Positions 13,269 to 38,394 of a stretch of 64,000 nt of DNA are shown here, one piece after another. The notes under the pieces were generated by a model. It saw only the letters and a program-made list of their open reading frames with translations, had not been told where the DNA came from and did not search any database. This DNA comes from an uncultured Verrucomicrobia subdivision 3 bacterium (GTDB lineage: Bacteria > Verrucomicrobiota > Verrucomicrobiia > Limisphaerales > UBA11358): contig CAIXUZ010000022.1 in assembly GCA_903922735.1 (NCBI GenBank), forward strand, positions 8,997-72,996, written 5' to 3'. The position numbers and the translations under genes were made by a program. Each line of letters starts with the position of its first letter. Within the stretch, counting starts at the first letter, position 1.

Positions 13269-13793
13269 ATGTATTCATTGAACCAGATGGCCACGGTTCT
13301 GAACCGTTCGACGATCTATCTGTCGGGATTGCAAAAGCGGTTTGCATTGCCGACTTGCGAGGGCGCAACCTACCCAGACGCCTATCTGGAATTTTTTCGC
13401 ACGGTGGTCTATCTCCGCACATTCGGCATTAGCGAAGAGTCACTGCGTGACCTTTGGGTGCTGGAAAAGAAACTGCTGACGTTGCTGCATGTGGATTCTA
13501 CCGGCAGCCCGACATGGTTTCTAGATGCGTGCGGACGCACCACGCATCGGGAGCGGCGCTTGATGCTCAGTAATTTTGATCTCGGCATCCCACTGGCTGC
13601 TCGCGAGGTGCAAACCGGCCTGGATTTCAGCGACCGGTTACCGGAATTGTTTGAGGGCAAAGCGATGGGCGAGGATGCACTGCGTGTGCTGGACGAATGT
13701 CTGAAGATTGAAAAAGGCATTCTCAAGGACGTGAGGTCAGAATTGCCGCAATTACGGGCGGCGACGAAATGGGCGGGACGTTTGCCGAAATAA
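13269..13793 (+). CDS. Hypothetical protein with possible N-terminal MerR-like helix-turn-helix
   Basis: YSLNQMATVLNRSTIYLSGLQKRFAL loosely follows the MerR HTH pattern. It lies directly upstream of the PurA-like gene. The assignment is weak. Confidence 0.4.
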   Translation: MYSLNQMATVLNRSTIYLSGLQKRFALPTCEGATYPDAYLEFFRTVVYLRTFGISEESLRDLWVLEKKLLTLLHVDSTGSPTWFLDACGRTTHRERRLMLSNFDLGIPLAAREVQTGLDFSDRLPELFEGKAMGEDALRVLDECLKIEKGILKDVRSELPQLRAATKWAGRLPK

Positions 13794-13809
13794 AGCCTAG
13801 GCATCATGA

Positions 13810-13841
13810 TTTTGTTTGTGGTTACGTGGCAACAAACAAAA
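13810..13841. promoter_or_regulatory. Operator-like palindrome upstream of the PurA-like gene
   Basis: ttttgtttgt (13810-13819) and acaaacaaaa (13832-13841) form a perfect 10-bp inverted repeat around ggttacgtggca, 43 nt upstream of the ATG at 13884. Confidence 0.45.
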
Positions 13842-13883
13842 TTGTGGACATTGAATTCCCAGAAAACCAGAATAGGTTAAATT

Positions 13884-14942
13884 ATGTCTGTAACAATTGT
13901 TGTCGGCGGCCAATACGGGTCCGAAGGCAAGGGCAAAGTGGTTGCCCTGTTGGCGAAAGAATCAACCTCTCCCTGGCTCGTCCGTTGCGGCGGCCCCAAT
14001 TCCGGTCACACCGTCACGATCGACGGGAAGCCCGTCATCATGCGCCAGGTTCCGTCCTGCTCCGAGCCGGATAAAGCGACTTTTTGCGTGGCGGCCGGCT
14101 GCGTGGTGGACGAGGAAATCCTCCTGCGTGAACTGGATTTACTGAAAATTCCACGAGAACGAATCATTGTGGATCCGCGCAGTGTTTTGGTGACGGAAGA
14201 AGATCGGATGGCTGAAGCCGGCTCTTTGGTCCGAATTGGCAGCACCTGCTCCGGGACGGGGGCAGCCCTGCTGCGTCGGATGTCGCGGGCAAAAGACGTG
14301 CGGCTTTCAAAAGACTCGGCAGCCATCAAGGCGCGCTGTCGCGTTGAAACTGTGGCGACGTTGCTGCATAGCCGGATTGAAGATGGTGGCGACATTATCG
14401 TGGAGGGAACGCAAGGTTTCGCCCTCTCACTTTTGCATGGCCCCGATTATCCCTATGTAACCTCCCGGGACACCACAGCCGCTGGGTTTGCCATGGAAAT
14501 TGGGCTCTCGCCTCGCCAAATCGACAAAATCGTGATGGTCATCCGGACATTCCCGATCCGGGTGGCTGGAACAAGCGGGCCATTCGCCAACGAGTTTTCA
14601 TGGGAACACATTCAAGCCATTTCCGGTGCACCACAAGTGTTGCCAGAATACACGTCGGTGACGAAGCGGTTGCGTCGCGTCGCGCGATTCGATCTCGATC
14701 TCGTGAAGCTCGCTTGCAATTACAATTGCCCAACCAGCTTGGCAGTGATGGGGCTCGACCGGCTTGATTATGCCAACACTGGCTTAACTGCTATCGACGC
14801 ATTGACCTCCAAGGCGCATGTGTTTTTGACTCAAATAGAGCAGGCGACTGATATTCCAATAGAGTTCATTGGCACTGGGTTTGGCACTTTTGACGTGATT
14901 CATGCATTGGTTCCAACCATAAAAACTGATTCACATGGCTGA
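13884..14942 (+). CDS. Adenylosuccinate synthetase family protein, short archaeal/PurZ-like type, with Ser replacing the P-loop Asp
   Basis: Motifs: VVGGQYGSEGKGKV, GGPNSGHTV, IGSTCSGTGAA, VEGTQGFALSLLHGPDYPYVTSRDTTAAG, TFPIRVAG, SVTKRLRRVARFD. At 352 aa it is shorter than bacterial PurA (about 430 aa). Confidence 0.8.
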   Translation: MSVTIVVGGQYGSEGKGKVVALLAKESTSPWLVRCGGPNSGHTVTIDGKPVIMRQVPSCSEPDKATFCVAAGCVVDEEILLRELDLLKIPRERIIVDPRSVLVTEEDRMAEAGSLVRIGSTCSGTGAALLRRMSRAKDVRLSKDSAAIKARCRVETVATLLHSRIEDGGDIIVEGTQGFALSLLHGPDYPYVTSRDTTAAGFAMEIGLSPRQIDKIVMVIRTFPIRVAGTSGPFANEFSWEHIQAISGAPQVLPEYTSVTKRLRRVARFDLDLVKLACNYNCPTSLAVMGLDRLDYANTGLTAIDALTSKAHVFLTQIEQATDIPIEFIGTGFGTFDVIHALVPTIKTDSHG

Positions 14943-17547
14943 AATTAAACTGAAGGAGCTACGAGAAATTCGTCGACGAGCACAAGAATTGCTCAGGTCT
15001 GTCGATACTGACATAAAGCCTTTTCTACACCAAAAGGATAAGGAGACTTTTCGTCGCAAACCTGAATCAGAATCAATAGAAGGAGATGTGAATGTCACTT
15101 CTAGCTGTTCGTGCCTAATGTCATTGGCACTTTCTAATTCCTTTTGTAAGTTTTACGACGTCGAAGATGCAACCAAAGCCAATCAAAAAGCAAAATCAAT
15201 TCTTGACCGCATTATAGATGCTCCGTGGATGAGTTCCGGTCTTACTGCTAATAATGCCTTCTCAACAGCTTTAGTTCTTCGCACTTATGGCTTTTTAAAG
15301 CAAGAAGGCTTGCTGAAGTTGGCCGACATTAAGCGAAAAGCATGGGAATTAAATTTTGGTTTGAAGCAGGAGAAGATTAGCGATTTTGCCATTTATTTGC
15401 AGACACAGAGTAACGAAACCTCTAAATACTTATATTCCTCACTTTCTGACGGGAGTCGAAGCCTTCTTGCGACTGCTTTACCATCTGCTGCGGAAGAAAA
15501 AGAAAAACATGAAAAGAGGCTTAGCCGATTAATTACTTTAGATCTCCGTCGATTGGTTCAATCCGGGTGGATTTATACAAAAGAAAGATTTCCAAATATT
15601 TCCTCTCCACTCGTTGACGACATAGGCAAACGGCCAACGGGTTATTTGTTAGCGAGGACGAATAAAAGACTATTTGATGAGCAGCTTAAAGAATATTTTA
15701 CAGGTTCATCAGAACAAAACCTTGAGGAAATAGCAGTTCAAATGGCAAAAGACCCAGACAATTTTGCTATTAACCAATATTCAGCGTCAGCAACTGTTCT
15801 TTACTGGTTTGTAGACGGGTTAGAGCGCGGACAAATTCATTTAGACGGGAAAGATTGGGGGCGGTTGTGTGAATGGGCTTGTAACGAATTTAATCACGAG
15901 CGATCTCTTGTGTTGGCCGAGCATGATGCAATGATGGATCCTATCGCTTTGGCTATGGCTGCTTGTCTATGTGCAAAAATACGCAACCTGGCTACGCGGG
16001 ATGATCTTGGCACAGGCAAAGGGCATCGAGAAATGTTACCGTCAATGGCAGAACTCGAGCATTCAATTCTGGAACTTTTCAGGCACCAAGCCACGAGTGG
16101 TATTTGGCCTAAGTATTTCCCACTTTTCCATTATCAAGATGCCGGTTCCAATTTTTGTTTTACTTTTGAAATGCTGGAAGCCGTTTTGAATGAGTTCGGG
16201 CATTCAGAAAACAAATTACTAGATCACGAAGATTTTATTAATGGCATCAAAGCCTCAGTTTTATGGTGCGAGGAGAATCGACTGAAATGCTCTGAAGGCA
16301 AGTCAACATACAGCGGATGGAATTCAGGTGGTGATCTGGAATCACTCGAAAAAGAACGTCCAGAATCGTGGGCCACAGCGGTTGTTCACATGTTTCTTTG
16401 GGAGTTAACAAGTGTTCTCTCACAACATATTCAAAAACGAGTTCTGCAAAAATATGGTGCTCGACAGCCAAAAATGTCCGCTGGGCAGATTCAAGAAGCA
16501 ATCAACAATGACGCCAAATGGAGGGAGCAAAATTTCGGAAGTGCCTTGAGTAAGCTTCAAGACATCGAACTTTTTATCGATCGAAAGCATGACAGCTTAA
16601 TTCGAGTTCTGAAAGAGGAGCTTTTAGATGCCAATTTCGTTAAAACGGAATTGCAGGTTCGCCGAGAAAAAGCAAGTGCTCCTATATCGGCTTTGTTATT
16701 TGGACCACCAGGAACTTCCAAAACACAAATAACAAAAGCTGTCGCCGAAGATTTAGGCTGGCCTATGCTTGTGATTAATCCATCAGAGTTTGTTAAAGGC
16801 AGCTTTGAAAATGTATATTTACAGGCAGAGGACATTTTTACGGACTTAATGGATCTGTCTGCGGTCGTTGTCCTTTTCGATGAAATGGATGCTTTGACAC
16901 AAAAGCGGTCGGATGGCAGCAGCGAATCAGGTGGCAATCATCTTGATACAGCAACGCAATTCTTGACCACCTCAATGTTGCCAAAACTTGCCGACTTACA
17001 TGACAATGGAGGAGTTGTTTTTTTCATGGCGACCAATTTCCAAGAAAACTTCGACCCGGCTATTAAACGTGCTGGTCGCTTTGATCTTCTTCTTTGCATG
17101 GGGCCGCCAAAGCTCTGTGAAAAGATCGAAAAACTGAAGCTGTTTCTAAAGCTGTTTCTAAATCCTGTTCCCCAAAATGACAGCATCGAAGCAGCAAAAT
17201 TAAGACTATACGCGATCTTAGCTAAATCCCCCCCCCATCGCGATATGTTGGAATTGTTTACGTTTGGCGAGTTTAAATCGTTTTTACGGCTCTTTGGAAA
17301 GACTGGTAGCGAAGTTTGTGAAAAGCTTAAGACTTGCAATGAGACAAATTTTTTAGAGCAAGTTGATGATTACAGTAAATCGATTGGTCTAAAGTTTGAA
17401 GACTTAAAACTTTTACTAAAAAATCCAACTGACATTAGCCCCCTCAGTAAGATTGACAAACTGCTGATAACTGACTTAGATAAAATTAAAGGCAAGGAAA
17501 TCGGCAAGTATTTTTACGAACGCCGCTTATCGAAGCGTCAGTTTTGA
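14935..17547 (+). CDS. 870-aa protein: unassigned ~580-aa N-terminal region plus C-terminal classical-clade AAA+ ATPase
   Basis: Walker A LLFGPPGTSKTQ, Walker B VVVLFDEMDAL, sensor-1 MATN, arginine-finger region KRAGRFD. Its ATG overlaps the upstream stop (ATGGCTGA). The gene is low in GC. Confidence 0.8.
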   Translation: MAEIKLKELREIRRRAQELLRSVDTDIKPFLHQKDKETFRRKPESESIEGDVNVTSSCSCLMSLALSNSFCKFYDVEDATKANQKAKSILDRIIDAPWMSSGLTANNAFSTALVLRTYGFLKQEGLLKLADIKRKAWELNFGLKQEKISDFAIYLQTQSNETSKYLYSSLSDGSRSLLATALPSAAEEKEKHEKRLSRLITLDLRRLVQSGWIYTKERFPNISSPLVDDIGKRPTGYLLARTNKRLFDEQLKEYFTGSSEQNLEEIAVQMAKDPDNFAINQYSASATVLYWFVDGLERGQIHLDGKDWGRLCEWACNEFNHERSLVLAEHDAMMDPIALAMAACLCAKIRNLATRDDLGTGKGHREMLPSMAELEHSILELFRHQATSGIWPKYFPLFHYQDAGSNFCFTFEMLEAVLNEFGHSENKLLDHEDFINGIKASVLWCEENRLKCSEGKSTYSGWNSGGDLESLEKERPESWATAVVHMFLWELTSVLSQHIQKRVLQKYGARQPKMSAGQIQEAINNDAKWREQNFGSALSKLQDIELFIDRKHDSLIRVLKEELLDANFVKTELQVRREKASAPISALLFGPPGTSKTQITKAVAEDLGWPMLVINPSEFVKGSFENVYLQAEDIFTDLMDLSAVVVLFDEMDALTQKRSDGSSESGGNHLDTATQFLTTSMLPKLADLHDNGGVVFFMATNFQENFDPAIKRAGRFDLLLCMGPPKLCEKIEKLKLFLKLFLNPVPQNDSIEAAKLRLYAILAKSPPHRDMLELFTFGEFKSFLRLFGKTGSEVCEKLKTCNETNFLEQVDDYSKSIGLKFEDLKLLLKNPTDISPLSKIDKLLITDLDKIKGKEIGKYFYERRLSKRQF

Positions 17548-17556
17548 GCATCGTGC

Positions 17557-20463
17557 CTATTTTACAAGTTGGATCATCTCGAATAGTGAATCATCCACGC
17601 GCCAACGGAGGTCTTCGAGTGAAGAATCATTTTTGAGACAATGGTGGGCATTGGTTTTAAGAAGGTTGGATTTTTGATCGATGCGGTTTTCATTACCGAT
17701 AGGTCGCCCGCCCTTTTTTTGCCGTGCCACTAGACGGTTTCGAATCGCTGATTCAGGTGCATCCACATACCAGAGTTTAGGCTCGTTTCCAAATTGGGAA
17801 AGCGATAGGAAATCGCTGAGATCACGAACGGCATCCACTACCACCGGTCGCTTGATGACAGCCACCATTTCATCGAGTTTACGAATCAAAGGCTCCTGCT
17901 GGTATTGTTCCAAAACAATGATCCCGAAATCTCTCAAGATGGCATCCGTAATTACATTATCAGCGACTTCCTTTTTATACATGCGCTTGGCAAATGGAAG
18001 TTTTAGGTCATCTACCAACAAAGCACGGATAATGTCCCGTGTTCGCAACCAGTGGAACCCGTAAAAGAGTGACAGATAGCGCGCAGCCACTGATTTTCCG
18101 GCCCCGGTCTTGCCCGACAGGCAGATGATTGGAAGTTTTTCGTAAATCAGCGGATGCAGTTTTGGTATGATCAGTTGAGCCTCGGACGGAATTCCCATCG
18201 GCTCAAATTCATTTGCTTCGTAGAAACGTCCCACGATGGCCGAAGTGATCGCGTCCATTTCATCGTGGGATTCCGTTTTCAGGCCAGGTCCCTTCAAACC
18301 CAATTCAGTCAATCCGGCACGCAGAAATTCAAGGCCCTTTTGTTTACGCGGGATGCAAAGCACGTCCTGTGCGGCCCCGGGATAGGATTCGATCACCTTG
18401 GGACCATTGGGTATGGCCTCAATTTCTCGACGCAATTTGATGCCGCGCAAGGTAAGCGGCTTCATCGAGTCAATCAGAGCGGGATATGCGGAAATTCCCA
18501 CGCTATTCAAATCGTATTCGGCGACCCGCATGATGCCAGCGGATTTGGAAACTTCGGATCCGCCACCCGGAAGGCCAAGCGGTGAATCGATACTGACGAT
18601 GGCGGGTTTTGTTTCCGCAATATAAGCCATGATGTCTTCGTCGGATTCGAGCGAGCAGGTTTTGACCTGCATCCCATCCAGAACGGCCGCGCCGGTGGGT
18701 TTAACCTTGCTGGCCGTCAGATCAAGACCAACAACCCGCGATCCAGCGGGAATACAGCCGTGGGTCGCCACACGCACAATGGTCGGCTTTGAGCGGACGG
18801 CAGGCTTGGCCTCGCCAAATAAATCCAAATCTCCCTGGGCCACGGGCCGAAATTCCGGCTCGTTCTGGGAACGGATATTCCGGGCGGTTTTCAACCACTT
18901 CTTTAACTCGCCATAGCCAAGCAGATTCAAAACCCGACTGGAATCGATATGGGGCAAAACCCTTTGGGCAATTTTGAGGTGTTCCAAATGCGCACGGCTA
19001 TGAGCGTCACTACCAAATGAAATCCAACAGCCAGTTGAAGATGCCTGGCGGAGCAACGGCAAAAGCAAATCCAGCCGGGAGGGAAAACAATTGAATTCCA
19101 GAGCCACCCGCCATTTCTTGCAAGCTGCAAAAACCCGGTCCCAATCCACCGCCACCGGAGTACGGTGATAGTTCGGCACGCCCGGTTTCCCCAGAATCGT
19201 TGCCGTAGGGTGGCCTAAAATATCAATAAGACCCGACTCAATGGCTCGCAAAATCCGGTTGGTATTTACCGTGTGATCAGCACTCCATGAACTGTGAACC
19301 GACCCCACCACAATATCCAGGCCGGCCAGCAGGCCAGGTGGAAGATCCACAGCACCATCCACCAAAATGTCGGCTTCTACCCCGTGAAGAATCTTGATGC
19401 CTGGCCGCACTAATGACAGTGAAACGGCCTGCCGAATCCAAGCAACCGGAGTGACCCCGCCTTGCAATTTGCTCGACCGGCTGTGATCGGTAATAGCCAG
19501 ATATTCCAAGCCCATTTTTTTGGCCGCATCGGCCATGGTTTGGAGCGCGGCTGCGCCGTCAGACCAATTGGTGTGCGAGTGCAGGTCGCCCCGCAAACTG
19601 AAGCCTCCCGAATTTAATAGAGGGTCAGCTTGTAAAGCTAGAGCGGCAATTGATTGGGGTTGGCCGGCAAAATATTCGGCGGTTTCGATAAAAGCCGTCC
19701 ATCCCAATATATGCTTAATGGAAACCTTGTTTTCAGAGATGCGCTTAAACCGGAAAAAGTGATCTTTACTCACCGCTTTCTTCACCACCTTCACCAGCGA
19801 GGTGCCCTCGGGCAGTTTGGTTTGAACGCAAAGGCCACCCATAATTGGTTCGAGACCGTCACCTAATTTGGGGGCAGCCCACAAGCATGGCTGGCCGACA
19901 AGGTTTTCAATTTCGTGAAGCAACCGCATCAACGGCGGAACCACATGCGCCGCCTCCCATAATGAATTCGCTTTACCCTCCCAAATTTCCAGCAGTGCCG
20001 GGGCTTTGAGGGTGGTTGACTTGACCGCATTGGAAAGCCAATCCTCTGGGGGCCTATTTTTGGATAAGGCTTCCGCCACCTGTTTGAGGCCCAAACCACG
20101 AACAGAGCGAAGACGCAAACACGCTTGGTGCACCGGAGTGCTTAATGCCTCAAGTTCTGGAATTGTGCCCGTCGCCTCAATTTTCAATAAATGGTCTTTA
20201 ATCCGGGTTGAGGGATCGCTATCGAGGGTATCTTCGTCAGCATCACCACGAAGCCACCGATTCACATTCGTGGTGTAGCCATCGAGACTCAGAGCCGCTT
20301 TCCAGAGCGCAAAAACTCGATATTCTGGAATATCTACGTTCTTGGCGAGGGCATCAATTTGAAGCAGATACGCCAAATCATACAATGGTTGAACGTGTTC
20401 AAAATCACGCGGACGAAAATAATCCGAACCCAAAGTGAGCAAGTGTTTTTTGGGGTTGTTCAT
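17557..20463 (-). CDS. 968-aa fusion: PolX-like HhH N-terminus (palm degenerate), PHP phosphoesterase, DUF429-like RNase-H-fold domain, P-loop nucleotide-kinase-like domain
   Basis: HhH: LRSVRGLGLKQVAEAL. PHP: DLHSHTNWSDG, ITDHSRS, GVEADIL, VGSVHS, ILGHP, FGSDAHS. DUF429-like: VVGLDLT, IVSIDSPLGLPGG, HDEMDAITSA. Kinase: ICLSGKTGAGKS. Confidence 0.7.
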   Translation of the reverse strand: MNNPKKHLLTLGSDYFRPRDFEHVQPLYDLAYLLQIDALAKNVDIPEYRVFALWKAALSLDGYTTNVNRWLRGDADEDTLDSDPSTRIKDHLLKIEATGTIPELEALSTPVHQACLRLRSVRGLGLKQVAEALSKNRPPEDWLSNAVKSTTLKAPALLEIWEGKANSLWEAAHVVPPLMRLLHEIENLVGQPCLWAAPKLGDGLEPIMGGLCVQTKLPEGTSLVKVVKKAVSKDHFFRFKRISENKVSIKHILGWTAFIETAEYFAGQPQSIAALALQADPLLNSGGFSLRGDLHSHTNWSDGAAALQTMADAAKKMGLEYLAITDHSRSSKLQGGVTPVAWIRQAVSLSLVRPGIKILHGVEADILVDGAVDLPPGLLAGLDIVVGSVHSSWSADHTVNTNRILRAIESGLIDILGHPTATILGKPGVPNYHRTPVAVDWDRVFAACKKWRVALEFNCFPSRLDLLLPLLRQASSTGCWISFGSDAHSRAHLEHLKIAQRVLPHIDSSRVLNLLGYGELKKWLKTARNIRSQNEPEFRPVAQGDLDLFGEAKPAVRSKPTIVRVATHGCIPAGSRVVGLDLTASKVKPTGAAVLDGMQVKTCSLESDEDIMAYIAETKPAIVSIDSPLGLPGGGSEVSKSAGIMRVAEYDLNSVGISAYPALIDSMKPLTLRGIKLRREIEAIPNGPKVIESYPGAAQDVLCIPRKQKGLEFLRAGLTELGLKGPGLKTESHDEMDAITSAIVGRFYEANEFEPMGIPSEAQLIIPKLHPLIYEKLPIICLSGKTGAGKSVAARYLSLFYGFHWLRTRDIIRALLVDDLKLPFAKRMYKKEVADNVITDAILRDFGIIVLEQYQQEPLIRKLDEMVAVIKRPVVVDAVRDLSDFLSLSQFGNEPKLWYVDAPESAIRNRLVARQKKGGRPIGNENRIDQKSNLLKTNAHHCLKNDSSLEDLRWRVDDSLFEMIQLVK

Positions 20464-20479
20464 TGTTATCGACTTTGAA

Positions 20480-21118
20480 TTATCGACCGGGCCAACTAGC
20501 CGCGAAAGAATCGATCACGGAACTGACCTGAGCTAAGGCCGTTGGATCATTTATACAATCGAAATGGTCCGCATCAATAATGTGAATATTTTTCGCCCCA
20601 CGCAAAAACGCCTCGTGATAGGCCCGATTCAGCCTTTTAAAATATTCCACGTCGATAACTTGCTCGATGGAACGGTTGCGTTTCCGAATCCGGTCGATAA
20701 TGAGATCGTCACTCCCTTTCAAATAAATAATAAGATCGGGAGCCGGGAGCCGCGCTCGCAGGAACTCGTAGAGCTGAATAAATACTTTCTTTTCAGATGC
20801 CACCTGAAAATTCAAATCTCCAAAAATTAAATCCTTGGCAAAAGTGAAATCGGTAATCGATTCTTGGGCGGAATTGGTCAGCCCCTTTAATTGATGATAA
20901 TGCACCAACAGGAACTGCATTTCCGTTTCAAAAACGTTCCCAACGGGATCTCGATAAAAAGCGCTCAAAAAGGGGTTTTTCTCAAAATCCTCCAAAACCA
21001 GAGCAGCCTTGCGGAAATCGGCCAGCATGGTTGCGAGGGTCGTTTTGCCGACACCGATGCAGCCATCAACCGCGATATGTAATTTTGAACCGCCGCTCAT
21101 GCGGAAAAGTCTTAACAT
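20480..21118 (-). CDS. Deoxynucleoside kinase family protein (variant: DFT in place of the (D/E)RS motif)
   Basis: HIAVDGCIGVGKTTLATML, LEDFEKNPFLSAFYRDP, QFLLVHY, and the LID-like IDRIRKRNRSIEQ. The start is taken at the ATG at 21118 (alternative 21100). The track ORF extends to 21367 and overlaps the upstream gene. Confidence 0.7.
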   Translation of the reverse strand: MLRLFRMSGGSKLHIAVDGCIGVGKTTLATMLADFRKAALVLEDFEKNPFLSAFYRDPVGNVFETEMQFLLVHYHQLKGLTNSAQESITDFTFAKDLIFGDLNFQVASEKKVFIQLYEFLRARLPAPDLIIYLKGSDDLIIDRIRKRNRSIEQVIDVEYFKRLNRAYHEAFLRGAKNIHIIDADHFDCINDPTALAQVSSVIDSFAASWPGR

Positions 21119-21222
21119 TTTTGCTAGAAAAAAACACCTGAATTTGTCTTCGATTTCGATTATCTCACCTAGAATGCTAGGTTGAGTTGAATGCGAAGCG
21201 TAAAAGAATCGTTTTAAAACGA

Positions 21223-21930
21223 CTAGATGTTTCGCCCCATGTATGCCGGGCGATTCGGTTTCCGAGGTGAATCGGTAATGCGCAAAGTAGCGTAGCCACG
21301 TTTCATTGAGAGATCGTAGTGCTGCCAAGACGCAACCTTCGCATGACGTTTCATTCGTTTTCTCCATTCCCTGTGGTTATAGAGTTTTGATCCGATGAAG
21401 TGAAAACCCGACAACGTCCGGAAAACAAATCCCGGTTCGCCTTTTAAGGCATGCGCAGGAAAGCTGCTGATGTTGTCAAAGTCCAGCATGATGAGGTGTT
21501 TCTCGGCATACTGGTTGACCCGGCTATTCAGGCCCAGAACATAATCTGTAGCCTCCTTCACACGAAGCCCCACCAAGGTGCGCCCCATGCTGTTGCGCAA
21601 CTGCTCCAGCCATTTGTCAGTCACGCGCCCCTTGGGGGACCAAACCGTGAAGCGCGTATGGTGGTAGTAGGATTTGGGGCAATAAATGTCGAAAGAGTAA
21701 TCGCGTATTTCCGGGTTTTCCTCGTCCAGAATTTCCAGAATGCGGGCCAATGAAACGGGAGGAATTTCGCGGGAGACCCGGGCAATGAATTTCCTTACCT
21801 GCCGGATACGGGCGCCAATATCCTTTTCCATGGAAGGAATGAACTCCCCGTAATCAGCCTTGTCTCGCTCGGAAAAAAGGCGCCGGAGCAACTTGGCATA
21901 TCCGCGAGGGAAGGTGACCGGCTGCCGCAA
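21223..21930 (-). CDS. Hypothetical protein with weak archaeo-eukaryotic primase (AEP)-like motif pair
   Basis: HLIMLDFDN (hhhhDxD) followed about 20 aa later by FRTLSGFHFIG (sGxH). The start is uncertain: TTG at 21930 or ATG at 21831. The track ORF start at 22209 runs antisense into the AIPR gene. Confidence 0.45.
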   Translation of the reverse strand: MRQPVTFPRGYAKLLRRLFSERDKADYGEFIPSMEKDIGARIRQVRKFIARVSREIPPVSLARILEILDEENPEIRDYSFDIYCPKSYYHHTRFTVWSPKGRVTDKWLEQLRNSMGRTLVGLRVKEATDYVLGLNSRVNQYAEKHLIMLDFDNISSFPAHALKGEPGFVFRTLSGFHFIGSKLYNHREWRKRMKRHAKVASWQHYDLSMKRGYATLRITDSPRKPNRPAYMGRNI

Positions 21931-21954
21931 GCCTTTGGGCGCTGGTTTGCAACG

Positions 21955-23577
21955 ATGTTTTTCCAAGGGGTAACGCAGGTTACCATTCCGGATGGTGCGG
22001 GAGATGGTAAGGTGGATATCCTTGTCGCCTGCCAGGTGGGCGACAAGGTCCGCTACAAAATTCTCAACACCAAGTTTACCAACGAATATGACCGCAGCTC
22101 CCCGGTAGCATTCTACGACGAAATTACGCGTTTCTGGCAGGCCTTTGAAAACAAGGGGAATCGCAATGACTATCTGAACAATGTGGTGCGGCAGACACTC
22201 CGTGAGCATTACAAAAAACTGTTCAAACTATATGACGAAGGGAAGGCCGAACTGTTCTTTGTCACCAACCACAGAATCAATGAAAACCAGTATCGCAGCG
22301 TGCAGCGGTATGGCATGAGCATCCTGCACTTGGAAGATATTCTCCAATATGTGGCTGAGAATACTGAGGGCGCGATGCCTGAGACAGAATCTTTGCTTTT
22401 AAATGGCATTTCAAATGTTTTAACCCCGGCGACAAACGAAACGGAGGTGCCGACCTCCATCGTGTTTGCCCGGTTGATTGACTTTATTCACTACATGGAA
22501 GAGGACCCGCTTGACCTACTCTTCGCCCGGAATGTCCGACTTTGGCTGGGGAACACGGAAACGAATCAGGAGATACAAAAAACCTTCAAAGTTGCCCCAA
22601 AGGAATTCGCCTACAGCAACAACGGAATTACCATCTTGTGCAAGAAACATACGCACAACCCAGGCAAGCAAGAGTTGTCATTGGAAAATCCACGGGTAGT
22701 GAACGGATCTCAGACGTTGCACAGTATTAGACAAGTCGACAGCCCCTCCTCCAATGCCCGCGTGATGGTTCGGATTATTGAAGTGCCGGCCAACGGTCAC
22801 GGGGATCTGCCGGCTCAAATCGAAAAACGTAAGGAGATCATCCATAAAATATCCATCCGCTCAAACCAACAAAACCCAATCAAACGATGGAACCTAGTTT
22901 CGAATGATGATTTTCAAAACGAACTGGCCCGGAATTTTTGGTCGAAACATCTTTATTACGAACGGCGCCAAAACGAATGGAAGGTGCGAAAATTAGAATT
23001 GTGGGGAGTGGGTATTGAGCGGGGGCCAGATTTACGTTGGATGGTGCAGCTGATCGCGGCCTCGCACTATGGCTCACGAAAACTTGGGGCGGCGGTGGCG
23101 CAAGGGCAAATTAATCTGCTGTTCGAGGAGGAACCCTACGCCGTGATCCGAAGCACCAGCCCAGAAAAAGCATATCAGTTGTTTCTGCTCGGAGAAATCA
23201 TGTCGTTGTCACTGAGGCGTCTACGCGGCAGCAAGCGCTATATCGCGAACTTAAAAACCTACATCGACCTGGCCATATTTTCTTTTATTTGCAAAGCGCT
23301 ATATGAGGCCGGTATCAGCCTAGGGAAAGAGGCCCTGAATGAAAAACTAGAAGCATTACGGAACAGTGGGACAGTGGAATTTGACAAACCGATCAAGGCG
23401 CTCATTGATATTTTCTGCAAAGAATATGAGGCTGAGAAAGCAAGAATATACCGGAAAGAAGGCAAAGAATTGAGCGTTGCCAATTATGTCAAAAGCCGCA
23501 ACTACATTGCGAATTTGTTGGAAGTAGCAATTCCAAAATCAATAGTCAAGGCGCTCACGGAAACCATGAGTGACTAA
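21955..23577 (+). CDS. AIPR (abortive infection phage resistance) family protein, possibly 5'-truncated
   Basis: PDGAGDGKVDILVA...KILNTKFT is nuclease-like, and the central NPRVVNGSQTLHSIRQ with RIIEV... is typical of AIPR as I recall it. Only about 12 codons precede the GDG motif. Confidence 0.6.
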   Translation: MFFQGVTQVTIPDGAGDGKVDILVACQVGDKVRYKILNTKFTNEYDRSSPVAFYDEITRFWQAFENKGNRNDYLNNVVRQTLREHYKKLFKLYDEGKAELFFVTNHRINENQYRSVQRYGMSILHLEDILQYVAENTEGAMPETESLLLNGISNVLTPATNETEVPTSIVFARLIDFIHYMEEDPLDLLFARNVRLWLGNTETNQEIQKTFKVAPKEFAYSNNGITILCKKHTHNPGKQELSLENPRVVNGSQTLHSIRQVDSPSSNARVMVRIIEVPANGHGDLPAQIEKRKEIIHKISIRSNQQNPIKRWNLVSNDDFQNELARNFWSKHLYYERRQNEWKVRKLELWGVGIERGPDLRWMVQLIAASHYGSRKLGAAVAQGQINLLFEEEPYAVIRSTSPEKAYQLFLLGEIMSLSLRRLRGSKRYIANLKTYIDLAIFSFICKALYEAGISLGKEALNEKLEALRNSGTVEFDKPIKALIDIFCKEYEAEKARIYRKEGKELSVANYVKSRNYIANLLEVAIPKSIVKALTETMSD

Positions 23578-23588
23578 CGAAGAATCGA

Positions 23589-24665
23589 TTAACTTTCTGT
23601 GCTAGTTACGGCACTTTTAAGGAATTCCCAGCCGACATATTCCTGGGCAAGACGCTGTTTAGCAGTGAACAACTGGCGGGCGGGTTCAGCGCAGTCGCCG
23701 AGCCAATCGCAAAGGGTCGGGGATGGCGGTTCGCCGTCATACGGCTGGCCGCGGCCAGCGCCAAGTTTCAATAACTGACGATAGCTCCAGAGGTGCGGCT
23801 CGACGGAGGGAATTCCCGGTTTGGTTGCGAACTGGGGAATGCGCAAGCCTTGGGGATCGAGATCACCAAAATACAGGATGCGGCGCACCCCGCCGATTTC
23901 CGCGAAGATGTCCGAAAGATAACGAACACCGTCCAAGAAACGATTGCCATCGCCGTAAAGAACGGCACTGAACAGCTTGCGCTCGGCGTTCCAGCGGCAA
24001 TATGAGTGCCAAGTGGCCGCGTTTTCGATGACGATCAGCGGTTGAGCGGAAGCGCAGGCCGGGCCGCGTTTCCAAGCGAGAGGCACACCGATGATCTCAC
24101 ACGCCAAGTCACTTTTGGCGTCCAGATGGTTTGGCCGAAACAGCACCGATGAAAGCAGAGAGTCGAGCCGTTTTTCATCACCAAAAATCTGAAGAGAGCG
24201 TTCTTTAATGGGGACCACCGGGCTATTTATTTCATGGGCGGACAAAAAGGCATTCAATTTGAGCAAATCCTCAAGCTCCACATTCACGCGGGTATGGGTG
24301 AGAAACTGCAATTTTTGAACCCAAGGAATTGACGCCAGTTCCACGCTTTTATCCGACACGTCAGCGGGATGAATCCGGCGAAACGCCGCGAACCATTCTC
24401 GCTCGGAACTCAACGGAAGCGCAAATCTTTGAATGCGCTCGCCATCGCGCCGTAAACGCAGTTCCAAAAATCCATCCAGAGCCAACAGTTTGGCGATCCG
24501 GCGGGCTTCAGCCTCGTCCTCGGCCGTTTGCAAACCACTCTCATCCAAAAAAGTTTCCCAATCCTGACTCCACGCCGTTTTGGGATGAGGATTGCGTTCC
24601 CGAAGACGCGAGAACCGAGCAAAGATTGCCTCAGTAAATGATGCTTCAGTGAGGGCTAATTTCAT
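23589..24665 (-). CDS. jetD: Wadjet JetD (DUF2220/Toprim-like nuclease subunit)
   Basis: The C-terminal ILYFGDLDPQGLRIP motif and its position after jetC. The ATG at 24665 is 2 nt after the jetC stop. The track start at 24695 would overlap jetC. Confidence 0.8.
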   Translation of the reverse strand: MKLALTEASFTEAIFARFSRLRERNPHPKTAWSQDWETFLDESGLQTAEDEAEARRIAKLLALDGFLELRLRRDGERIQRFALPLSSEREWFAAFRRIHPADVSDKSVELASIPWVQKLQFLTHTRVNVELEDLLKLNAFLSAHEINSPVVPIKERSLQIFGDEKRLDSLLSSVLFRPNHLDAKSDLACEIIGVPLAWKRGPACASAQPLIVIENAATWHSYCRWNAERKLFSAVLYGDGNRFLDGVRYLSDIFAEIGGVRRILYFGDLDPQGLRIPQFATKPGIPSVEPHLWSYRQLLKLGAGRGQPYDGEPPSPTLCDWLGDCAEPARQLFTAKQRLAQEYVGWEFLKSAVTSTES

Positions 24666-24666
24666 C

Positions 24667-27600: not shown

Positions 27601-28029
27601 GGCAAGATCCAAGCGGTCCGGGTAACAAAAATAGAGCAGTGTAGGCCGACTAGACGGACTTTCAAATTCGATACGCTGGCCCCAAGTCTGCTTCCGCTTT
27701 CCATCCGGCCAAGTGAACTCAAGGCCAATGAAGGTCACTACCTGATCACGAGCAAATTCTTCGGCACTGTCCGTGCCGGTATTGGTATCACACAAGCAAT
27801 ACCCCTTAAGGAGACGTTTGGAAGCATCGCCCGTGGCCGCCCGGTTAAAACGCGCATGACTCCCCAACAGGACGCGTTGAATCAAATCCAACAGGGCGGA
27901 TTTACCAGAACCATAATCACCCGTGATGAGCAGGTTGCTGTTCACTTCCATCACCTGATTAAAGCCATACCAGTTCACGGCAATAATCCGCGTGAGCCGG
28001 ATCGGATGCTTAAGATTGTTGCGTTTCAT
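24667..28029 (-). CDS. jetC: Wadjet JetC (SMC/MukB-like ATPase)
   Basis: 1120 aa. N-terminal Walker A ITGDYGSGKSALLD, long coiled-coil middle, C-terminal LSGGESQSPFFLAMLAS signature and LVAMDEAFSKL Walker B. Confidence 0.88.
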   Translation of the reverse strand: MKRNNLKHPIRLTRIIAVNWYGFNQVMEVNSNLLITGDYGSGKSALLDLIQRVLLGSHARFNRAATGDASKRLLKGYCLCDTNTGTDSAEEFARDQVVTFIGLEFTWPDGKRKQTWGQRIEFESPSSRPTLLYFCYPDRLDLAQTCDEQGDFLEEAPFRAWLKREGGDVWDREESYLDNLSHAASLNFNLKSLLKTLPESLAFQRITRFDEFIRERLLAETPLEIDAVRRSLEVHEDYARKLQRYENQLLFLKRIASHHEDQLAADKQARLMRVLEKDFELKRTVEAREAAAELLISLRSQAEDEQRNLSATSSKREAAKLAMDAARVLLSKEGGDELLNLRNRQKQLHAEVVGLTQRRTDTLSQLRERAESWKRWLQLGRQLPGGLLADGIEPRADLLSSIFSGTVESGLAALPALADHFNGLRVKAATEQSIYSGKVTSLTREVNALKEDMRKLDSNRTHGDFPLRDYFEKKLPRTPGAFGPEQLCRLTEIKPEAEQWRPALELFLRNNRFSLILDPQRHLLAQQLLDKEFDRETRREPLVDPDEALKLDAQVLPNSLAEKVTASHPVARAFLDHLLGRVVCVDSPSQFKGKPRAITVNAVLWNRPVTSKLGRTADFDPVIGIKGLEAMKQRKLKILAEKSADLLKAQEVSQRLTRWIEGGEELHLGAAVLVSGAEGFALLETKQNELASVKNQLAVLAKPDLEERVAEVQRLDSEHTELVALEARLKDKDTVKRIRDQEERHTSLLTTESERRLNFEECVAHFGQGLPSQIREESAAVFLSDYRNWDDRIKRAIELRGEEAKKAETARGEKIRERALLRQQFAEFSRFNELDDSNDDYDAERRLLEDQKVEEYRLKSDESKKDWEDRLKQHVMSELKRRTDQVVKDIKQLNSSIDEPIGHNHYRISWDQRHDSDFDQLWKLLKNGLEVTDPLVAAIHDPEIEAAKAKLMEALKSPADSPLRLRLDYREYFKFDMKAKDQRLPEDTGWSSLNRHAGKLSGGESQSPFFLAMLASFLRAYHRAEPGSLSRRDTLGLVAMDEAFSKLSGEGVSSCMSTADALGLQLVLAMPDKDAPSALRGANTILMITIHKSIGPDGRVVIENWAHPARAHDTLAELES

Positions 28030-38387: not shown

Positions 38388-38394
38388 ATATTTT

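What the first reader, a model, noticed from the sequence alone, without database searches (positions are those of the whole stretch)
13269..21930. Convergent 8.6-kb nucleotide/DNA-metabolism cluster whose parts parallel phage 2-aminoadenine (Z-genome) gene sets, in a chromosomal defence island
Seen: two operons converge with 9 bp between their stops (17547 and 17557). The plus strand carries the HTH gene, the PurA/PurZ-like gene and the AAA+ gene. The minus strand carries the small AEP-motif protein, the dNK-like gene and the PolX-like/PHP/DUF429-like/kinase fusion. The whole block is lower in GC than the backbone and abuts AIPR and Wadjet. Established knowledge: phage Z-clusters combine PurZ with nucleotide phosphohydrolases (MazZ, DatZ) and a dedicated polymerase (DpoZ, or a PrimPol in cyanophage S-2L), and they rely on kinases to reach the triphosphate. 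Inference: this cluster has no virion genes, yet it contains a PurZ-like synthetase, a PHP phosphoesterase, two nucleoside/nucleotide-kinase modules and a possible primase-polymerase. That is enough to salvage, convert and phosphorylate a non-canonical purine deoxynucleotide. Alternatives are self-DNA modification, production of a toxic or chain-terminating nucleotide as an antiviral, or two unrelated systems that merely abut.
Basis: inference. Interest (0 to 1): 0.8.

Follow-up and report, generated by a model that had tools for sequence, protein, structure and literature searches.

The report
Bacterial PurZ-like nucleotide defence system
Four genes in a bacterial defence island form one conserved, widespread and apparently undescribed system, built around a cellular relative of the phage enzyme that makes the precursor of 2-aminoadenine ("Z") DNA, so bacteria may use Z-type nucleotide chemistry against phages.

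Summary
Two operons converge with 9 bp between their stops. They encode a short PurA-like enzyme, an AAA+ ATPase, a PolX-like/PHP/RNase-H-like/kinase fusion and a deoxynucleoside kinase, next to AbiU, Wadjet and a type I R-M system.

These four genes travel together across many phyla, sometimes as a single operon, so they are one system. The "HTH" gene and the AEP-like ORF are not conserved and are not part of it.

The synthetase carries the PurZ hallmarks: Asp13→Ser, an IGST…GAA motif, a loop insertion after Val273, and TVTKRLRR. None of its 150 nearest cluster representatives has Asp at position 13. A PurA paralogue in a toyocamycin-like cluster keeps Asp.

The family is modular. The synthetase pairs with a CoaE/adenylate-kinase-like kinase, which is fused to it on some plasmids. 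It also pairs with one of several alternative partners: the AAA+ protein or a catalytically degenerate dCTP-deaminase-like membrane protein, which never co-occur, or two proteins of unknown function.

PADLOC has no model for it, and I found no paper describing it.

Best reading, inferred and untested: the system converts deoxyguanosine nucleotides into succino-/2-aminoadenine deoxynucleotides on infection. The product acts either as an alarm nucleotide read by the partner protein (about 0.35) or as a direct corruption of the dNTP pool (about 0.30).

The parts
13884..14942 (+). PurZ-like succino-(amino)deoxyadenylate-synthetase homologue. It is a short PurA fold of 352 aa with P-loop GGQYGSEGKG (Ser in place of PurA Asp13).
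   Evidence: Pfam Adenylsucc_synt 4.9e-50. It falls below the NCBIfam cutoffs for both PurA (294 vs 368) and PurZ (211 vs 300). Signature motifs are shared with PurZ/PurZ0. Ser13 is invariant in A1. None of the 150 nearest representatives has Asp.
14935..17547 (+). AAA+ ATPase of 870 aa. It has a conserved all-alpha N-terminal domain (1-~560) of unknown fold family, then a classical-clade AAA module with intact Walker A/B and arginine residues. It is the exchangeable partner of the synthetase.
   Evidence: Pfam AAA 3.4e-20. The AF2 model has pLDDT 85. Foldseek matches only p97/Rpt/Vps4-type AAA. The N-domain has no PDB or Pfam hit. It overlaps the synthetase gene by 8 bp and has 41.6% GC. It is present in 19 of 54 full loci and never occurs with Dcd-TM.
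17557..20463 (-). Four-domain fusion of 968 aa. Domains are a PolX-like Pol-beta core without a conserved catalytic triad (~1-285), a PolX-type PHP phosphoesterase with all metal ligands invariant (~290-530), an RNase-H-fold DUF429-like domain (~560-775), and a CoaE/adenylate-kinase-like nucleotide kinase (~776-968).
   Evidence: AF2 pLDDT 83. Foldseek hits T. thermophilus and D. radiodurans PolX at E 1e-25 to 1e-19 and adenylate-kinase-related proteins at 5e-05. The profile against PDB aligns the PHP domain 291-531 to ttPolX 335-573 at 183 bits. Invariant columns are listed. DUF429 is E 0.016.
20480..21100 (-). Deoxynucleoside kinase of ~206 aa. The ORF extends to 21367, but homologues and orthologues support the shorter form.
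   Evidence: Pfam dNK 1.9e-28. The best PDB match is Mycoplasma deoxyguanosine kinase 2jaq/2jas at 3e-16. The L086 orthologue is 214 aa. It co-occurs with the system in 23 of 54 full loci.
13269..13793 (+). It may be a lineage-specific regulator and is not a conserved part of the system.
   Evidence: It has no hit in any family library. Jackhmmer finds it only in the identical metagenome contig L001. Close relatives have an unrelated 84-aa ORF instead.

Best explanation
Genes 13884-21100 are one accessory, horizontally mobile four-gene system. It belongs to a large modular family of bacterial systems whose constant core is a PurZ-type (Ser13) adenylosuccinate-synthetase homologue, usually with a CoaE/adenylate-kinase-like kinase.

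Proposed mechanism, with the status of each step:
1. During phage infection, deoxyguanosine nucleotides become available. Sources would be DNA breakdown, helped here by the PHP and RNase-H-like nuclease domains of the fusion protein bound to DNA ends through its dead PolX core, and deoxyguanosine phosphorylated by the dNK. This step is inferred.
2. The PurZ-like enzyme condenses dGMP with aspartate, probably using GTP, to give N6-succino-2-amino-dAMP. The chemistry is inferred from active-site signatures. It is not shown.
3. The fused kinase, and possibly host PurB and Ndk, convert this product to di- or triphosphate succino- or 2-aminoadenine deoxynucleotides. This step is inferred.
4. This non-canonical purine deoxynucleotide acts as an alarm metabolite read by the exchangeable partner protein encoded next to the synthetase. 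Here the partner is the AAA+ ATPase with its conserved N-terminal pocket domain. In other variants it is a catalytically degenerate dCTP-deaminase-fold protein with transmembrane helices, a ~260-aa unknown protein, or DUF7002. The partner then arrests the cell or blocks phage replication. This step is inferred by analogy with Kongming.

My estimates for separate claims:
- One system: about 0.95.
- PurZ-type chemistry on a guanine deoxynucleotide: about 0.65.
- Anti-phage role: about 0.6.
- Alarm-nucleotide read-out specifically: about 0.35.
For: One system:
- PurA-like, AAA+, fusion and dNK genes co-occur in the same layout in L002-L013, L015 and L017. They lie on one strand in L014 (all four) and L025 (three; no dNK) and recur in L086/L087.
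- In distant relatives the DUF429-kinase gene sits directly upstream of the synthetase and dNK downstream.
- On plasmids of Burkholderia, Ralstonia, Agrobacterium, Rhizobium and Methylobacterium the kinase is fused to the synthetase. 27 of 150 cluster representatives carry the same N-terminal extension.

PurZ-type chemistry:
- Four signatures are shared with PurZ/PurZ0 and not with E. coli or P. horikoshii PurA: Asp13→Ser, IGST..GAA, a two-residue insertion after the Val273 equivalent, and TVTK(R)LRR.
- Asp13 is 99% conserved in PurA and is Ser in 100% of phage PurZ (PMC12884076).
- S23, T273 and Q308 and the loop at V241 determine PurZ selectivity (PMC8342488).
- None of the 150 nearest 50%-cluster representatives has Asp.
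- As a control, a short PurA paralogue in a toyocamycin-like cluster keeps Asp.
- The associated kinase is a deoxynucleoside kinase closest to deoxyguanosine kinase.

Exchangeable partner:
- In 54 loci with full flanks, AAA+ occurs in 19 and Dcd-TM in 31. They never occur together, and the other 4 loci carry c5.
- DUF7002 fills the same position on plasmids.
- Dcd-TM has lost the RSS serine pair and the catalytic Glu138, has no dUTPase motif V, and carries 1-4 predicted TM helices in most copies (4 of about 50 bacterial copies have none). That is the look of a ligand-sensing membrane effector.
- In Kongming a base-modified dNTP (dITP) is sensed by a pyrophosphatase-fold subunit (10.1101/2024.12.20.629578; PMC13454610).

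Defence context:
- The window has AbiU, JetABCD and a type I R-M system.
- Neighbours elsewhere hit LmuB, DrmC/D, BrxH, TIR-TM, HEC-07, Cas1 and MTase_I. L086 has an IetAS-like pair.
- The distribution is sporadic across phyla: at least 476 loci in 185,579 species genomes.
- The AAA+ allele appears to have been swapped by recombination.
Against: - Nothing has been tested experimentally.
- The enzyme scores below NCBI's PurZ cutoff (211 vs 300 bits) and is overall closer to archaeal PurA (199 bits) than to PurZ0 (128) or PurZ (110). Its substrate could therefore be another 6-oxopurine nucleotide.
- A signalling role does not obviously need nuclease domains or a dNK. Those fit a salvage-and-conversion pathway better.
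- I know of no AAA+ unfoldase that acts as a nucleotide-activated effector. The AAA+ could instead be the infection sensor, as RdrA is thought to be in RADAR.
- The Dcd-TM argument comes from relatives, not from this window.
- The defence-island association was sampled, not tested against a background.
- The 80 genome loci are the nearest of 476 and were found with Ser-containing patterns. Only the plasmid and representative searches are unbiased in that respect.
Confidence: 0.35

Rival explanations
1. Same enzymes and same PurZ-type chemistry, but the product is not a signal and the system corrupts the dNTP pool directly. dG and dGMP from DNA breakdown, and indirectly dGTP, are drained into succino-/2-aminoadenine deoxynucleotides. 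With host PurB and Ndk and the fused kinase these become dZTP. Phage replication is then starved of dGTP and/or poisoned with Z. The AAA+ protein, or Dcd-TM, c5 or DUF7002 elsewhere, is the infection-sensing gate that keeps the enzyme off.
For: - Nuclease, dNK, synthetase and NMP-kinase together form a linear salvage-and-conversion pathway like the phage Z pathway.
- The Z-cluster is toxic when expressed in E. coli (PMC8342488).
- Kinase domains of relatives match the kinase part of the defensive dCTP deaminase (PADLOC dCTPase, 1.6e-15).
- RADAR pairs an AAA+ ATPase with a purine-nucleotide-modifying enzyme (PMC9994260).
- The synthetase and AAA+ genes overlap, which suggests a complex.
- The AAA+ allele is swapped and divergent, as expected for a phage-contacting sensor.
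Against: - Four unrelated, mutually exclusive partners, one of them a membrane-anchored pseudo-enzyme, look more like effectors than like gates.
- Known depletion systems are single proteins.
- PurA-type enzymes are not obviously fast enough to drain a pool.
- No DatZ-like dATPase is conserved, so Z would compete with A rather than replace it.
Confidence: 0.3
2. The system partially replaces A by Z, or makes another modified purine, in the cell's own DNA or in the DNA of the mobile element that carries it. The purpose would be protection against restriction or nucleases.
For: - PurZ-type signatures.
- Occurrence on conjugative plasmids.
- A weak YfbR-like HD gene, the DatZ fold, next to the S. 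medicae copy (E 5e-4, below cutoff).
- The PolX-like/PHP DNA-end-processing module.
Against: - No conserved dATPase, no dedicated polymerase, and a dead PolX palm.
- Sporadic accessory distribution inside defence islands.
- An AAA+ unfoldase or membrane pseudo-enzyme partner has no role in constitutive modification.
- Z incorporation is toxic to E. coli.
Confidence: 0.08
3. The genes are a specialised purine-nucleoside salvage or antimetabolite (natural-product) pathway unrelated to phages, comparable to the PurA paralogue ToyG in toyocamycin biosynthesis.
For: A short PurA paralogue does sit in a deazapurine nucleoside cluster on a Rhizobium plasmid. The gene set consists of kinases and phosphoesterases.
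Against: - That paralogue keeps Asp13, whereas this family never does.
- No tailoring, export or resistance genes are conserved.
- Neighbours are defence genes.
- Modular swapping of partners is typical of immune systems.
Confidence: 0.07
4. The enzyme is an ordinary adenylosuccinate synthetase (IMP to adenylosuccinate) that happens to lie next to a PolX-type DNA-repair gene.
For: The best family and structure matches are to archaeal-type PurA.
Against: - The catalytic Asp13 is replaced in every member.
- The protein is below both PurA equivalog cutoffs.
- It is found at only about 476 loci among the 185,579 species genomes (pattern-based scan).
- Its partners are conserved, and the PolX palm is degenerate.
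Confidence: 0.03
5. Two unrelated systems merely abut at the convergent junction.
For: The genes are convergently transcribed with separate promoter regions.
Against: The genes are linked in many phyla and on one strand in L014 (all four) and L025 (three of them). The kinase part of the minus-strand gene is fused to the plus-strand gene's homologue on plasmids.
Confidence: 0.01

Closest known systems
Phage PurZ / PurZ0 (succino-amino-deoxyadenylate synthase) and the Z-genome gene cluster
   Same: Both are short PurA folds. They share Asp13→Ser, IGST..GAA, the insertion after Val273 and TVTK(R/K)hRR. Like PurZ0, the window enzyme keeps the Asp333 equivalent of the guanine-nucleotide pocket. It is accompanied by enzymes that supply or phosphorylate deoxynucleotides.
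   Different: Identity to any phage copy is at most 39%, and the protein is below the NCBIfam PurZ cutoff. It is cellular or plasmid-borne and lies in defence islands. No DatZ, MazZ/DutZ or DpoZ accompanies it. Its partners (AAA+, Dcd-TM, c5, DUF7002, nuclease-kinase fusion) are absent from 80 viral contigs. Those contigs instead carry a true ~144-aa dUTPase next to their PurZ-like gene.
Archaeal short PurA (P. horikoshii, PDB 2d7u/5k7x; NCBIfam NF003295)
   Same: This is the highest overall sequence similarity (199 bits; 294 bits to NF003295). Length and deletions match.
   Different: PurA keeps Asp13, IGTT..GPA, RVGAGPFP and TGRRRR. In the NJ tree both PurAs separate from the bacterial family plus PurZ/PurZ0 in 99.8% of 500 bootstraps. 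Only two PurAs were included.
Kongming (KomABC): immune signalling by a base-modified deoxynucleotide (dITP)
   Same: A purine-base-converting enzyme plus nucleotide kinases make a non-canonical dNTP. A degenerate nucleotide-hydrolase-fold subunit senses it. This is the concept I favour for the present system.
   Different: There is no homology. Kongming uses a deaminase and phage-encoded kinases and has a SIR2 effector. Here the enzyme is an adenylosuccinate-synthetase homologue, the kinases are host-encoded, and the effectors differ. Signalling has not been shown here.
RADAR (RdrA AAA+ ATPase + RdrB adenosine deaminase)
   Same: Both pair a large ATPase of about 870-900 aa with an enzyme that modifies purine nucleotides, encoded side by side in defence islands.
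   Different: There are no PADLOC RdrA or RdrB hits. The AAA+ here belongs to the classical p97/Vps4 clade and has a different N-domain. The chemistry also differs (C6 amination through aspartate rather than deamination), and there are two extra genes.
Defensive dCTP deaminase (kinase-Dcd fusion; nucleotide depletion, 10.1101/2021.04.26.441389)
   Same: Kinase domains of relatives match the kinase part of the PADLOC dCTPase model (1.6e-15 and 6.8e-07). Many variants include a Dcd-fold protein.
   Different: The window's own kinase did not reach that model, and the window has no Dcd gene. In relatives the Dcd-like protein lacks the catalytic Glu and carries TM helices.
Bacterial PolX (Pol-beta core + PHP 3'-5' exonuclease/phosphoesterase)
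   Same: The fold matches over ~590 columns. The PHP domain is homologous at sequence level with all metal ligands (183 bits).
   Different: No conserved acidic residues remain in the palm, and the core is not detectable by sequence. The protein is fused to an RNase-H-fold domain and a kinase. In other variants the whole PolX/PHP part is replaced by a DEDDh RNase_H_2 exonuclease.

Membership tests
PurZ / PurZ0 (succino-amino-deoxyadenylate synthase) | Catalytic Asp13 of PurA replaced by Ser | tested here: met
   The P-loop is GGQYGSEGKG. Ser is invariant in A1. Among the 150 nearest representatives the position is Ser, apart from 4 Gly and 1 Leu among readable N-termini (about a dozen are N-terminally truncated fragments); none has Asp. 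The criterion comes from PMC12884076.
PurZ / PurZ0 (succino-amino-deoxyadenylate synthase) | Substrate-pocket changes: the loop after Val273 and the TTGRRRR motif altered | tested here: met
   The window has PIRVAGTSGP against PurA TRVGAGPFP, and TSVTKRLRR against TTGRRRR. Both match PurZ0/PurZ. The loop's role is described in PMC8342488.
PurZ / PurZ0 (succino-amino-deoxyadenylate synthase) | Scores above the curated NCBIfam PurZ model cutoff (NF038379, 300 bits) | tested here: not met
   The score is 211.3 bits.
PurZ / PurZ0 (succino-amino-deoxyadenylate synthase) | Falls inside the PurZ+PurZ0 clade in a phylogeny | tested here: inconclusive
   The NJ tree separates {E. coli, P. horikoshii PurA} from {bacterial family + PurZ0 + PurZ} in 99.8% of 500 bootstraps. 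The family's position relative to PurZ is unresolved (37% support). Only two PurAs and three phage enzymes were used.
PurZ / PurZ0 (succino-amino-deoxyadenylate synthase) | Uses dGMP + Asp to make dSMP | not testable with these tools
   This needs an enzyme assay.
Phage Z-genome cluster | PurZ accompanied by DatZ and/or MazZ/DutZ and a dedicated polymerase, in a viral genome | tested here: not met
   No such genes are conserved in 80 genome loci. The AEP-like ORF is not conserved. The context is a bacterial defence island.
Canonical adenylosuccinate synthetase PurA | Asp13 general base, and a score above the equivalog cutoffs | tested here: not met
   Position 13 is Ser. Scores are NF003295 293.8 against 368 and TIGR00184 214.4 against 395.55.
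Canonical adenylosuccinate synthetase PurA | Housekeeping, near-universal distribution | tested here: not met
   The pattern-defined family occurs at 476 loci among 185,579 species genomes. It lies in variable regions and on plasmids.
Bacterial DNA polymerase X | Pol-beta-like core plus C-terminal PHP domain | tested here: met
   Foldseek matches 3auo and 2w9m over ~590 columns at E 1e-25 to 1e-19. The PHP profile match is 183 bits.
Bacterial DNA polymerase X | Conserved catalytic carboxylates in the palm | tested here: not met
   No invariant or nearly invariant Asp or Glu lies between residues 182 and 280 across 22 homologues. The core is not detectable by sequence. No residue-level structural superposition was done.
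Defensive dCTP deaminase (PADLOC dCTPase) | Kinase domain fused to a catalytically competent dCTP deaminase | tested here: not met
   The window has no Dcd domain, and its kinase does not hit the model. Relatives' Dcd-TM has Glu138→Pro and has lost the RSS motif.
RADAR / IetAS / other PADLOC systems | Hits to the system's signature proteins with the signature partner present | tested here: not met
   Only the generic AAA module hits IetA or TRIP13 (4e-14, 7e-08), and no S8 protease partner is present. There is no RdrA or RdrB hit. The synthetase, Dcd-TM, c5, DUF7002 and the kinase-synthetase fusion have no PADLOC hit.
Archaeo-eukaryotic primase (AEP) for ORF 21223-21840 | Significant match to an AEP family, and linkage to the system | tested here: not met
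   The Pfam AEP-like hit is E 0.003, 17.7 bits against a cutoff of 27. There is no PHROG hit and no homologue in any related locus.
Kongming-type base-modified-nucleotide signalling | An infection-dependent non-canonical nucleotide that binds and activates an effector | not testable with these tools
   This is an analogy only. It needs metabolomics and binding assays.

The most novel reading that the evidence does not exclude
Bacteria, and some archaea, possess a large and previously unrecognised immune family that uses PurZ-type chemistry. On infection it makes succino-/2-aminoadenine deoxynucleotides, either as an alarm signal for interchangeable effectors or as a replication poison. This cellular clade would be the evolutionary source, or sister, of the phage PurZ0/PurZ enzymes that build Z-genomes. 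Phages and hosts would then be using the same unusual purine chemistry on opposite sides of the arms race.
Probability: 0.35. Interest if true: 0.9.

Novelty: new variant of a known kind. Interest (0 to 1): 0.8.

Why it matters
PurZ and the 2-aminoadenine pathway are known only from phages, where they help escape host restriction. A cellular Ser13 clade with its own conserved partners would matter in three ways.

- It would extend Z-type purine chemistry to cells. The clade spans well over a hundred 50%-identity clusters and is present on plasmids and in defence islands across many phyla.
- It would add an adenylosuccinate-synthetase-like enzyme to the short list of nucleotide-converting immune enzymes (viperins, dCTP deaminase, RADAR, Kongming).
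- It would offer a candidate for the missing link between archaeal PurA and phage PurZ0.

The system is directly testable because variants exist in cultured bacteria: Paludibaculum fermentans, a Pirellulaceae isolate, Sinorhizobium medicae, Burkholderia thailandensis and Ralstonia solanacearum. New enzymes that make Z or succino-purine nucleotides would also be of practical interest for making modified DNA.

Tried and rejected
- **AEP-like ORF and 'HTH' gene as parts of the system.** Rejected, because neither has a homologue in any related locus. Close relatives carry other small ORFs in those positions.
- **Dcd-TM as an orthologue of phage DutZ.** I considered this because many IMG/VR contigs have a dUTPase-fold gene right after their PurZ-like gene. 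I rejected it after alignment. The viral genes are true dUTPases with GRSS and motif V. Dcd-TM lacks these and lacks the deaminase Glu.
- **Active PolX polymerase.** Rejected, because no conserved palm carboxylates remain.
- **Known defence system.** PADLOC gives only generic AAA, kinase or DUF429-like partial hits.
- **N-terminal domain of the AAA+ protein and the c5 protein.** No Pfam, NCBIfam, PDB-sequence or PHROG match was found. Foldseek output was dominated by the AAA module.
- **Promoter and terminator scan.** Counts were at shuffle level, so it was uninformative.
- **Biopython bootstrap.** It timed out and was replaced by my own NJ script.
- **Literature.** Nine searches combined PurZ, adenylosuccinate, diaminopurine or DUF429 with defence terms. 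None found a paper describing such a system. Subscription-only papers are not covered. The bare 'PurZ' search mostly matched surnames.

Full report
**Observation**

- Plus strand: a 174-aa ORF (13269-13793), a 352-aa PurA-like gene (13884-14942), and an 870-aa AAA+ gene (14935-17547) that overlaps the PurA-like stop by 8 bp.
- Minus strand: a 968-aa fusion gene (17557-20463), a dNK gene 16 bp upstream of it (20480-21100 or 21367), and a further ORF (21223-~21840).
- The two stops are separated by exactly nine bases.

Pfam, NCBIfam and PADLOC confirm Adenylsucc_synt, AAA, PHP, kinase and dNK domains. They also confirm AbiU/AIPR and JetD next door, followed by JetC/B/A and a type I R-M system. 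The block is a real feature of a defence island. Its GC is 0.484 against 0.612 for the last 18 kb of the window, but it is uneven. The AAA+ gene is 0.416 and the synthetase gene 0.552.

**One system, not two**

A search of one genome per species found 476 loci encoding a close relative of the synthetase, and I fetched 80.
- tblastn with the window proteins shows synthetase, AAA+, fusion and dNK together in the same convergent layout. This holds in Acidobacteriota, Verrucomicrobiota, Binatia, Planctomycetota, Spirochaetota and a Saccharimonadales bin.
- In L014 all four, and in L025 three of them (no dNK), lie on one strand.
- A metagenome relative (L086/L087) has the same four genes, tightly spaced.
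- In more distant loci, a gene equivalent to the C-terminal half of the fusion sits directly upstream of the synthetase on the same strand, with dNK downstream.
- On plasmids of Burkholderia, Ralstonia, Agrobacterium, Rhizobium and Methylobacterium, the kinase is fused to the N-terminus of the synthetase. 27 of the 150 nearest cluster representatives carry such an extension.

The two operons travel together. The 174-aa 'HTH' ORF and the AEP-like ORF have no homologue in any related locus and no significant family match. They are not part of the system.

**The synthetase is PurZ-like at the active site**

Overall it is most similar to archaeal short PurA: 199 bits to P. horikoshii PurA, against 128 to PurZ0 (7vf6) and 110 to phiVC8 PurZ. 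It falls below NCBI's cutoffs for both PurA and PurZ.

An alignment with real E. coli PurA, P. horikoshii PurA, one PurZ0 and two PurZ sequences shows four signatures shared with PurZ/PurZ0 and absent from PurA:
- GSEGKG instead of GDEGKG (Asp13→Ser).
- IGST..G.GAA instead of IGTT..G.GPA.
- A two-residue insertion after the Val273 equivalent (RVAGTSGP against RVGAGPFP).
- TVTKRLRR instead of TTGRRRR.

The literature supports reading these as PurZ hallmarks. Asp13 is 99% conserved in PurA and is Ser in all 147 phage PurZ/PurZ0 sequences (PMC12884076). The Ser, the T273 region and the loop at the conserved Val are implicated in dGMP and deoxyribose selectivity (PMC8342488).

An exhaustive search of 1.84 billion cluster representatives, not biased by any pattern, gave 150 nearest representatives. 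None has Asp at this position. All readable N-termini (about a dozen are truncated fragments) have Ser except 4 Gly and 1 Leu.

A useful control came from a plasmid search. A short PurA paralogue inside a toyocamycin/sangivamycin-like deazapurine cluster keeps Asp (GGQWGDEAKG). The six other plasmid copies examined have Ser together with the partner genes described below. So Ser13 is not a general feature of 'PurA paralogues for odd purines'.

The family keeps the Asp333 equivalent of the guanine-nucleotide pocket, as PurA and PurZ0 do. PurZ has Asn there. I therefore infer GTP as the phosphate donor.

A small NJ tree puts both true PurAs on one side and the bacterial family plus PurZ0 and PurZ on the other in 99.8% of 500 bootstraps. 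It does not resolve the order within that side. The associated nucleoside kinase is closest to Mycoplasma deoxyguanosine kinase.

**The fusion protein**

The AlphaFold model (pLDDT 83) matches complete bacterial PolX from T. thermophilus and D. radiodurans over about 590 columns. Its C-terminus matches adenylate-kinase-related proteins.
- At sequence level only the PHP domain is PolX-like (183 bits). Its metal ligands are invariant.
- No acidic residue is conserved in the palm. The polymerase is probably dead and serves as a binder of DNA ends or gaps.
- The middle domain is a weak DUF429 / RNase-H-fold match.
- In other variants the PolX/PHP part is replaced by a DEDDh RNase_H_2 exonuclease. 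This is a functionally equivalent 3'-5' exonuclease module. Across 54 loci the two forms never co-occur.

**Modularity**

I counted domains in the 54 loci with at least 5 kb on both sides.

| Module | Loci (of 54) |
|---|---|
| Kinase | 41 |
| DUF429-like domain | 36 |
| DEDDh exonuclease | 24 |
| PolX/PHP | 12-13 |
| dNK | 23 |

The gene immediately downstream of the synthetase is either the AAA+ protein (19 loci) or a ~345-aa dCTP-deaminase-fold protein with C-terminal TM helices, which I call 'Dcd-TM' (31 loci). The two never occur together. The four loci with neither carry a ~260-aa protein of unknown family (c5). On plasmids the same position is occupied by DUF7002.

Dcd-TM has lost three features found in active relatives: the RSS serine pair, the catalytic Glu138 of E. 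coli Dcd (replaced by Pro), and dUTPase motif V. Most copies have 1-4 predicted TM helices.

The AAA+ protein has intact Walker motifs and belongs to the classical p97/Rpt/Vps4 clade. Its 560-residue all-alpha N-domain is rich in invariant aromatic and polar motifs, and no known relative was found for it.

In the window this gene looks recombined in. Its GC is 14 points lower than that of the overlapping synthetase gene. Its identity to relatives is incongruent with the other three genes. L002 shows 85/82/72% for synthetase, fusion and dNK but 43% for AAA+. L004 shows 73/51/43% but 59% for AAA+.

**Context and relation to phages**

- Of 115 immediate neighbours in other genomes, several match LmuB, DrmC/D, BrxH, TIR-TM, HEC-07, HmaA, PD-Lambda-2, Cas1 and R-M methylases.
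- L086 is flanked by an S8-peptidase/AAA pair.
- Plasmid copies lie near TA modules, UvrD-like helicases and transposases.
- No phage copy is more than 39% identical.
- IMG/VR holds 146 contigs with a QYGSEGK-type enzyme at ≤44% identity. Many have a true ~144-aa dUTPase next to it, which fits PurZ0-DutZ phages (PMC12884076). None has the DUF429, PolX/PHP, DEDDh, c5 or dNK modules.

The multi-gene system is therefore cellular.

**Mechanism (inferred)**

All variants share an enzyme that should attach aspartate to C6 of a guanine deoxynucleotide, plus kinases able to supply the substrate or phosphorylate the product.

I favour a model (about 0.35) in which infection raises dGMP or dG, for instance through DNA breakdown aided by the nuclease domains. 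The synthetase and kinases then make a succino-/2-aminoadenine deoxynucleotide, and the exchangeable partner reads it out.

Three observations support this model:
- There are at least four unrelated partners. AAA+ and Dcd-TM are mutually exclusive, and Dcd-TM is a membrane-anchored pseudo-enzyme of a dNTP-binding fold.
- Kongming provides a precedent, where dITP is sensed by a pyrophosphatase-fold subunit.
- The AAA+ N-domain has a conserved, pocket-like set of motifs.

The main rival (about 0.30) keeps the chemistry but makes it the weapon itself. dG nucleotides are drained and dZTP accumulates, with the partner acting as an infection-sensing gate as in RADAR. The salvage-like gene set, the known toxicity of the Z-cluster in E. 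coli and the kinase's relation to the dCTP-deaminase defence protein favour this rival.

Self-DNA modification, natural-product synthesis, ordinary PurA function and chance adjacency are less likely, for the reasons listed under the rival explanations.

**Novelty and limits**

PADLOC (2023) has no model for the synthetase, Dcd-TM, c5, DUF7002 or the fusion. Nine full-text searches found no paper linking a PurA/PurZ-like enzyme to bacterial defence. The library does not cover subscription-only papers.

I rate it a new variant of a known kind. That kind is nucleotide-converting immune systems. It is also a new cellular clade of the PurZ lineage.

Limits:
- No function has been tested.
- The genome loci are the 80 nearest of 476 and were found with Ser-containing patterns.
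- The phylogeny is minimal.
- The defence-island association was not tested statistically.
- The AAA+ N-domain, the DUF429-like domain, c5 and DUF7002 remain unassigned.

Noticed in passing
window 21223-21840 (-), within ORF 21223-22209: A ~205-aa ORF between dNK and the AbiU/AIPR gene has DxD- and SGxH-like motifs and a sub-threshold Pfam AEP-like hit (E 0.003). It has no homologue in any related locus and no PHROG hit. The long form overlaps the AIPR gene start. It may be a remnant or an independent small gene.
   Followed up: partly
window 21955-30312 and 35110-41003: The flanking defence genes are AbiU/AIPR (21955-23577), a complete Wadjet JetD/C/B/A operon on the minus strand (23589-30312), and a type I R-M system with R, M and S subunits (35110-41003).
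   Followed up: partly
window 30562-31221 (-): A 219-aa ORF matches only the C-terminal third of PADLOC 'RT-Protease_XI' models (1e-09). It may be a fragment or a stand-alone domain.
   Followed up: no
window 14935-17547 (+): The AAA+ gene is 41.6% GC and the synthetase gene it overlaps is 55.2%. Its similarity to relatives is incongruent with the other three genes. This indicates allele replacement by recombination inside the operon.
   Followed up: partly
L169-L174 (plasmids of B. thailandensis, R. solanacearum PSI07, A. rubi, Rhizobium sp. NLR16a, M. bullatum): These carry a two-gene variant. A kinase fused to the PurZ-like enzyme (~530-575 aa) is followed directly by a DUF7002 protein (PF22531, 2e-63). 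Neither has a PADLOC hit. These hosts are culturable and suited to experiments.
   Followed up: partly
L168 (S. medicae ml29 plasmid pMl5) 7302-10063: This is a minimal PurZ-like + Dcd-TM pair on a conjugative plasmid. A divergent upstream 200-aa gene gives a weak YfbR-like HD hit (E 5e-4, below cutoff). That is the fold of phage DatZ.
   Followed up: no
L170 (R. leguminosarum OyaliB plasmid p3) 7375-15721: This is a toyocamycin/sangivamycin-like deazapurine cluster: FolE, an Asp13-type short PurA paralogue, PurB, QueE, an IMPDH/GMP-reductase-like gene, nitrile hydratase, QueC, HAD, PRTase and QueD. I used it as a control for the Ser13 signature.
   Followed up: partly
L086 4602-9447: Next to a close relative of the system is another base-modification-looking cluster: a Dam-like methyltransferase, Ogg-HhH glycosylase, a PfkB + nucleoside 2-deoxyribosyltransferase fusion, QueC and a nitroreductase. 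Downstream lies an S8 peptidase + AAA pair (IetAS-like).
   Followed up: no
L088-L167 (IMG/VR contigs): 146 viral contigs encode a QYGSEGK-type PurZ-like enzyme (≤44% identical to the window). In 38 of the 80 fetched contigs a ~144-aa true dUTPase is also encoded, in most directly downstream of it. Two of the 80 (L132, L143) instead have a kinase and DUF7002, like the plasmid variant.
   Followed up: partly
L030, L024 and 21 other loci (c5 genes, e.g. L030:11999-12787): A conserved ~260-aa partner protein (N-terminus ...YVGDLGDFGKFGLL..., motif FIDPDNG) has no Pfam, NCBIfam, PADLOC or PHROG match. It occurs with either AAA+ or Dcd-TM, or alone with the synthetase.
   Followed up: partly
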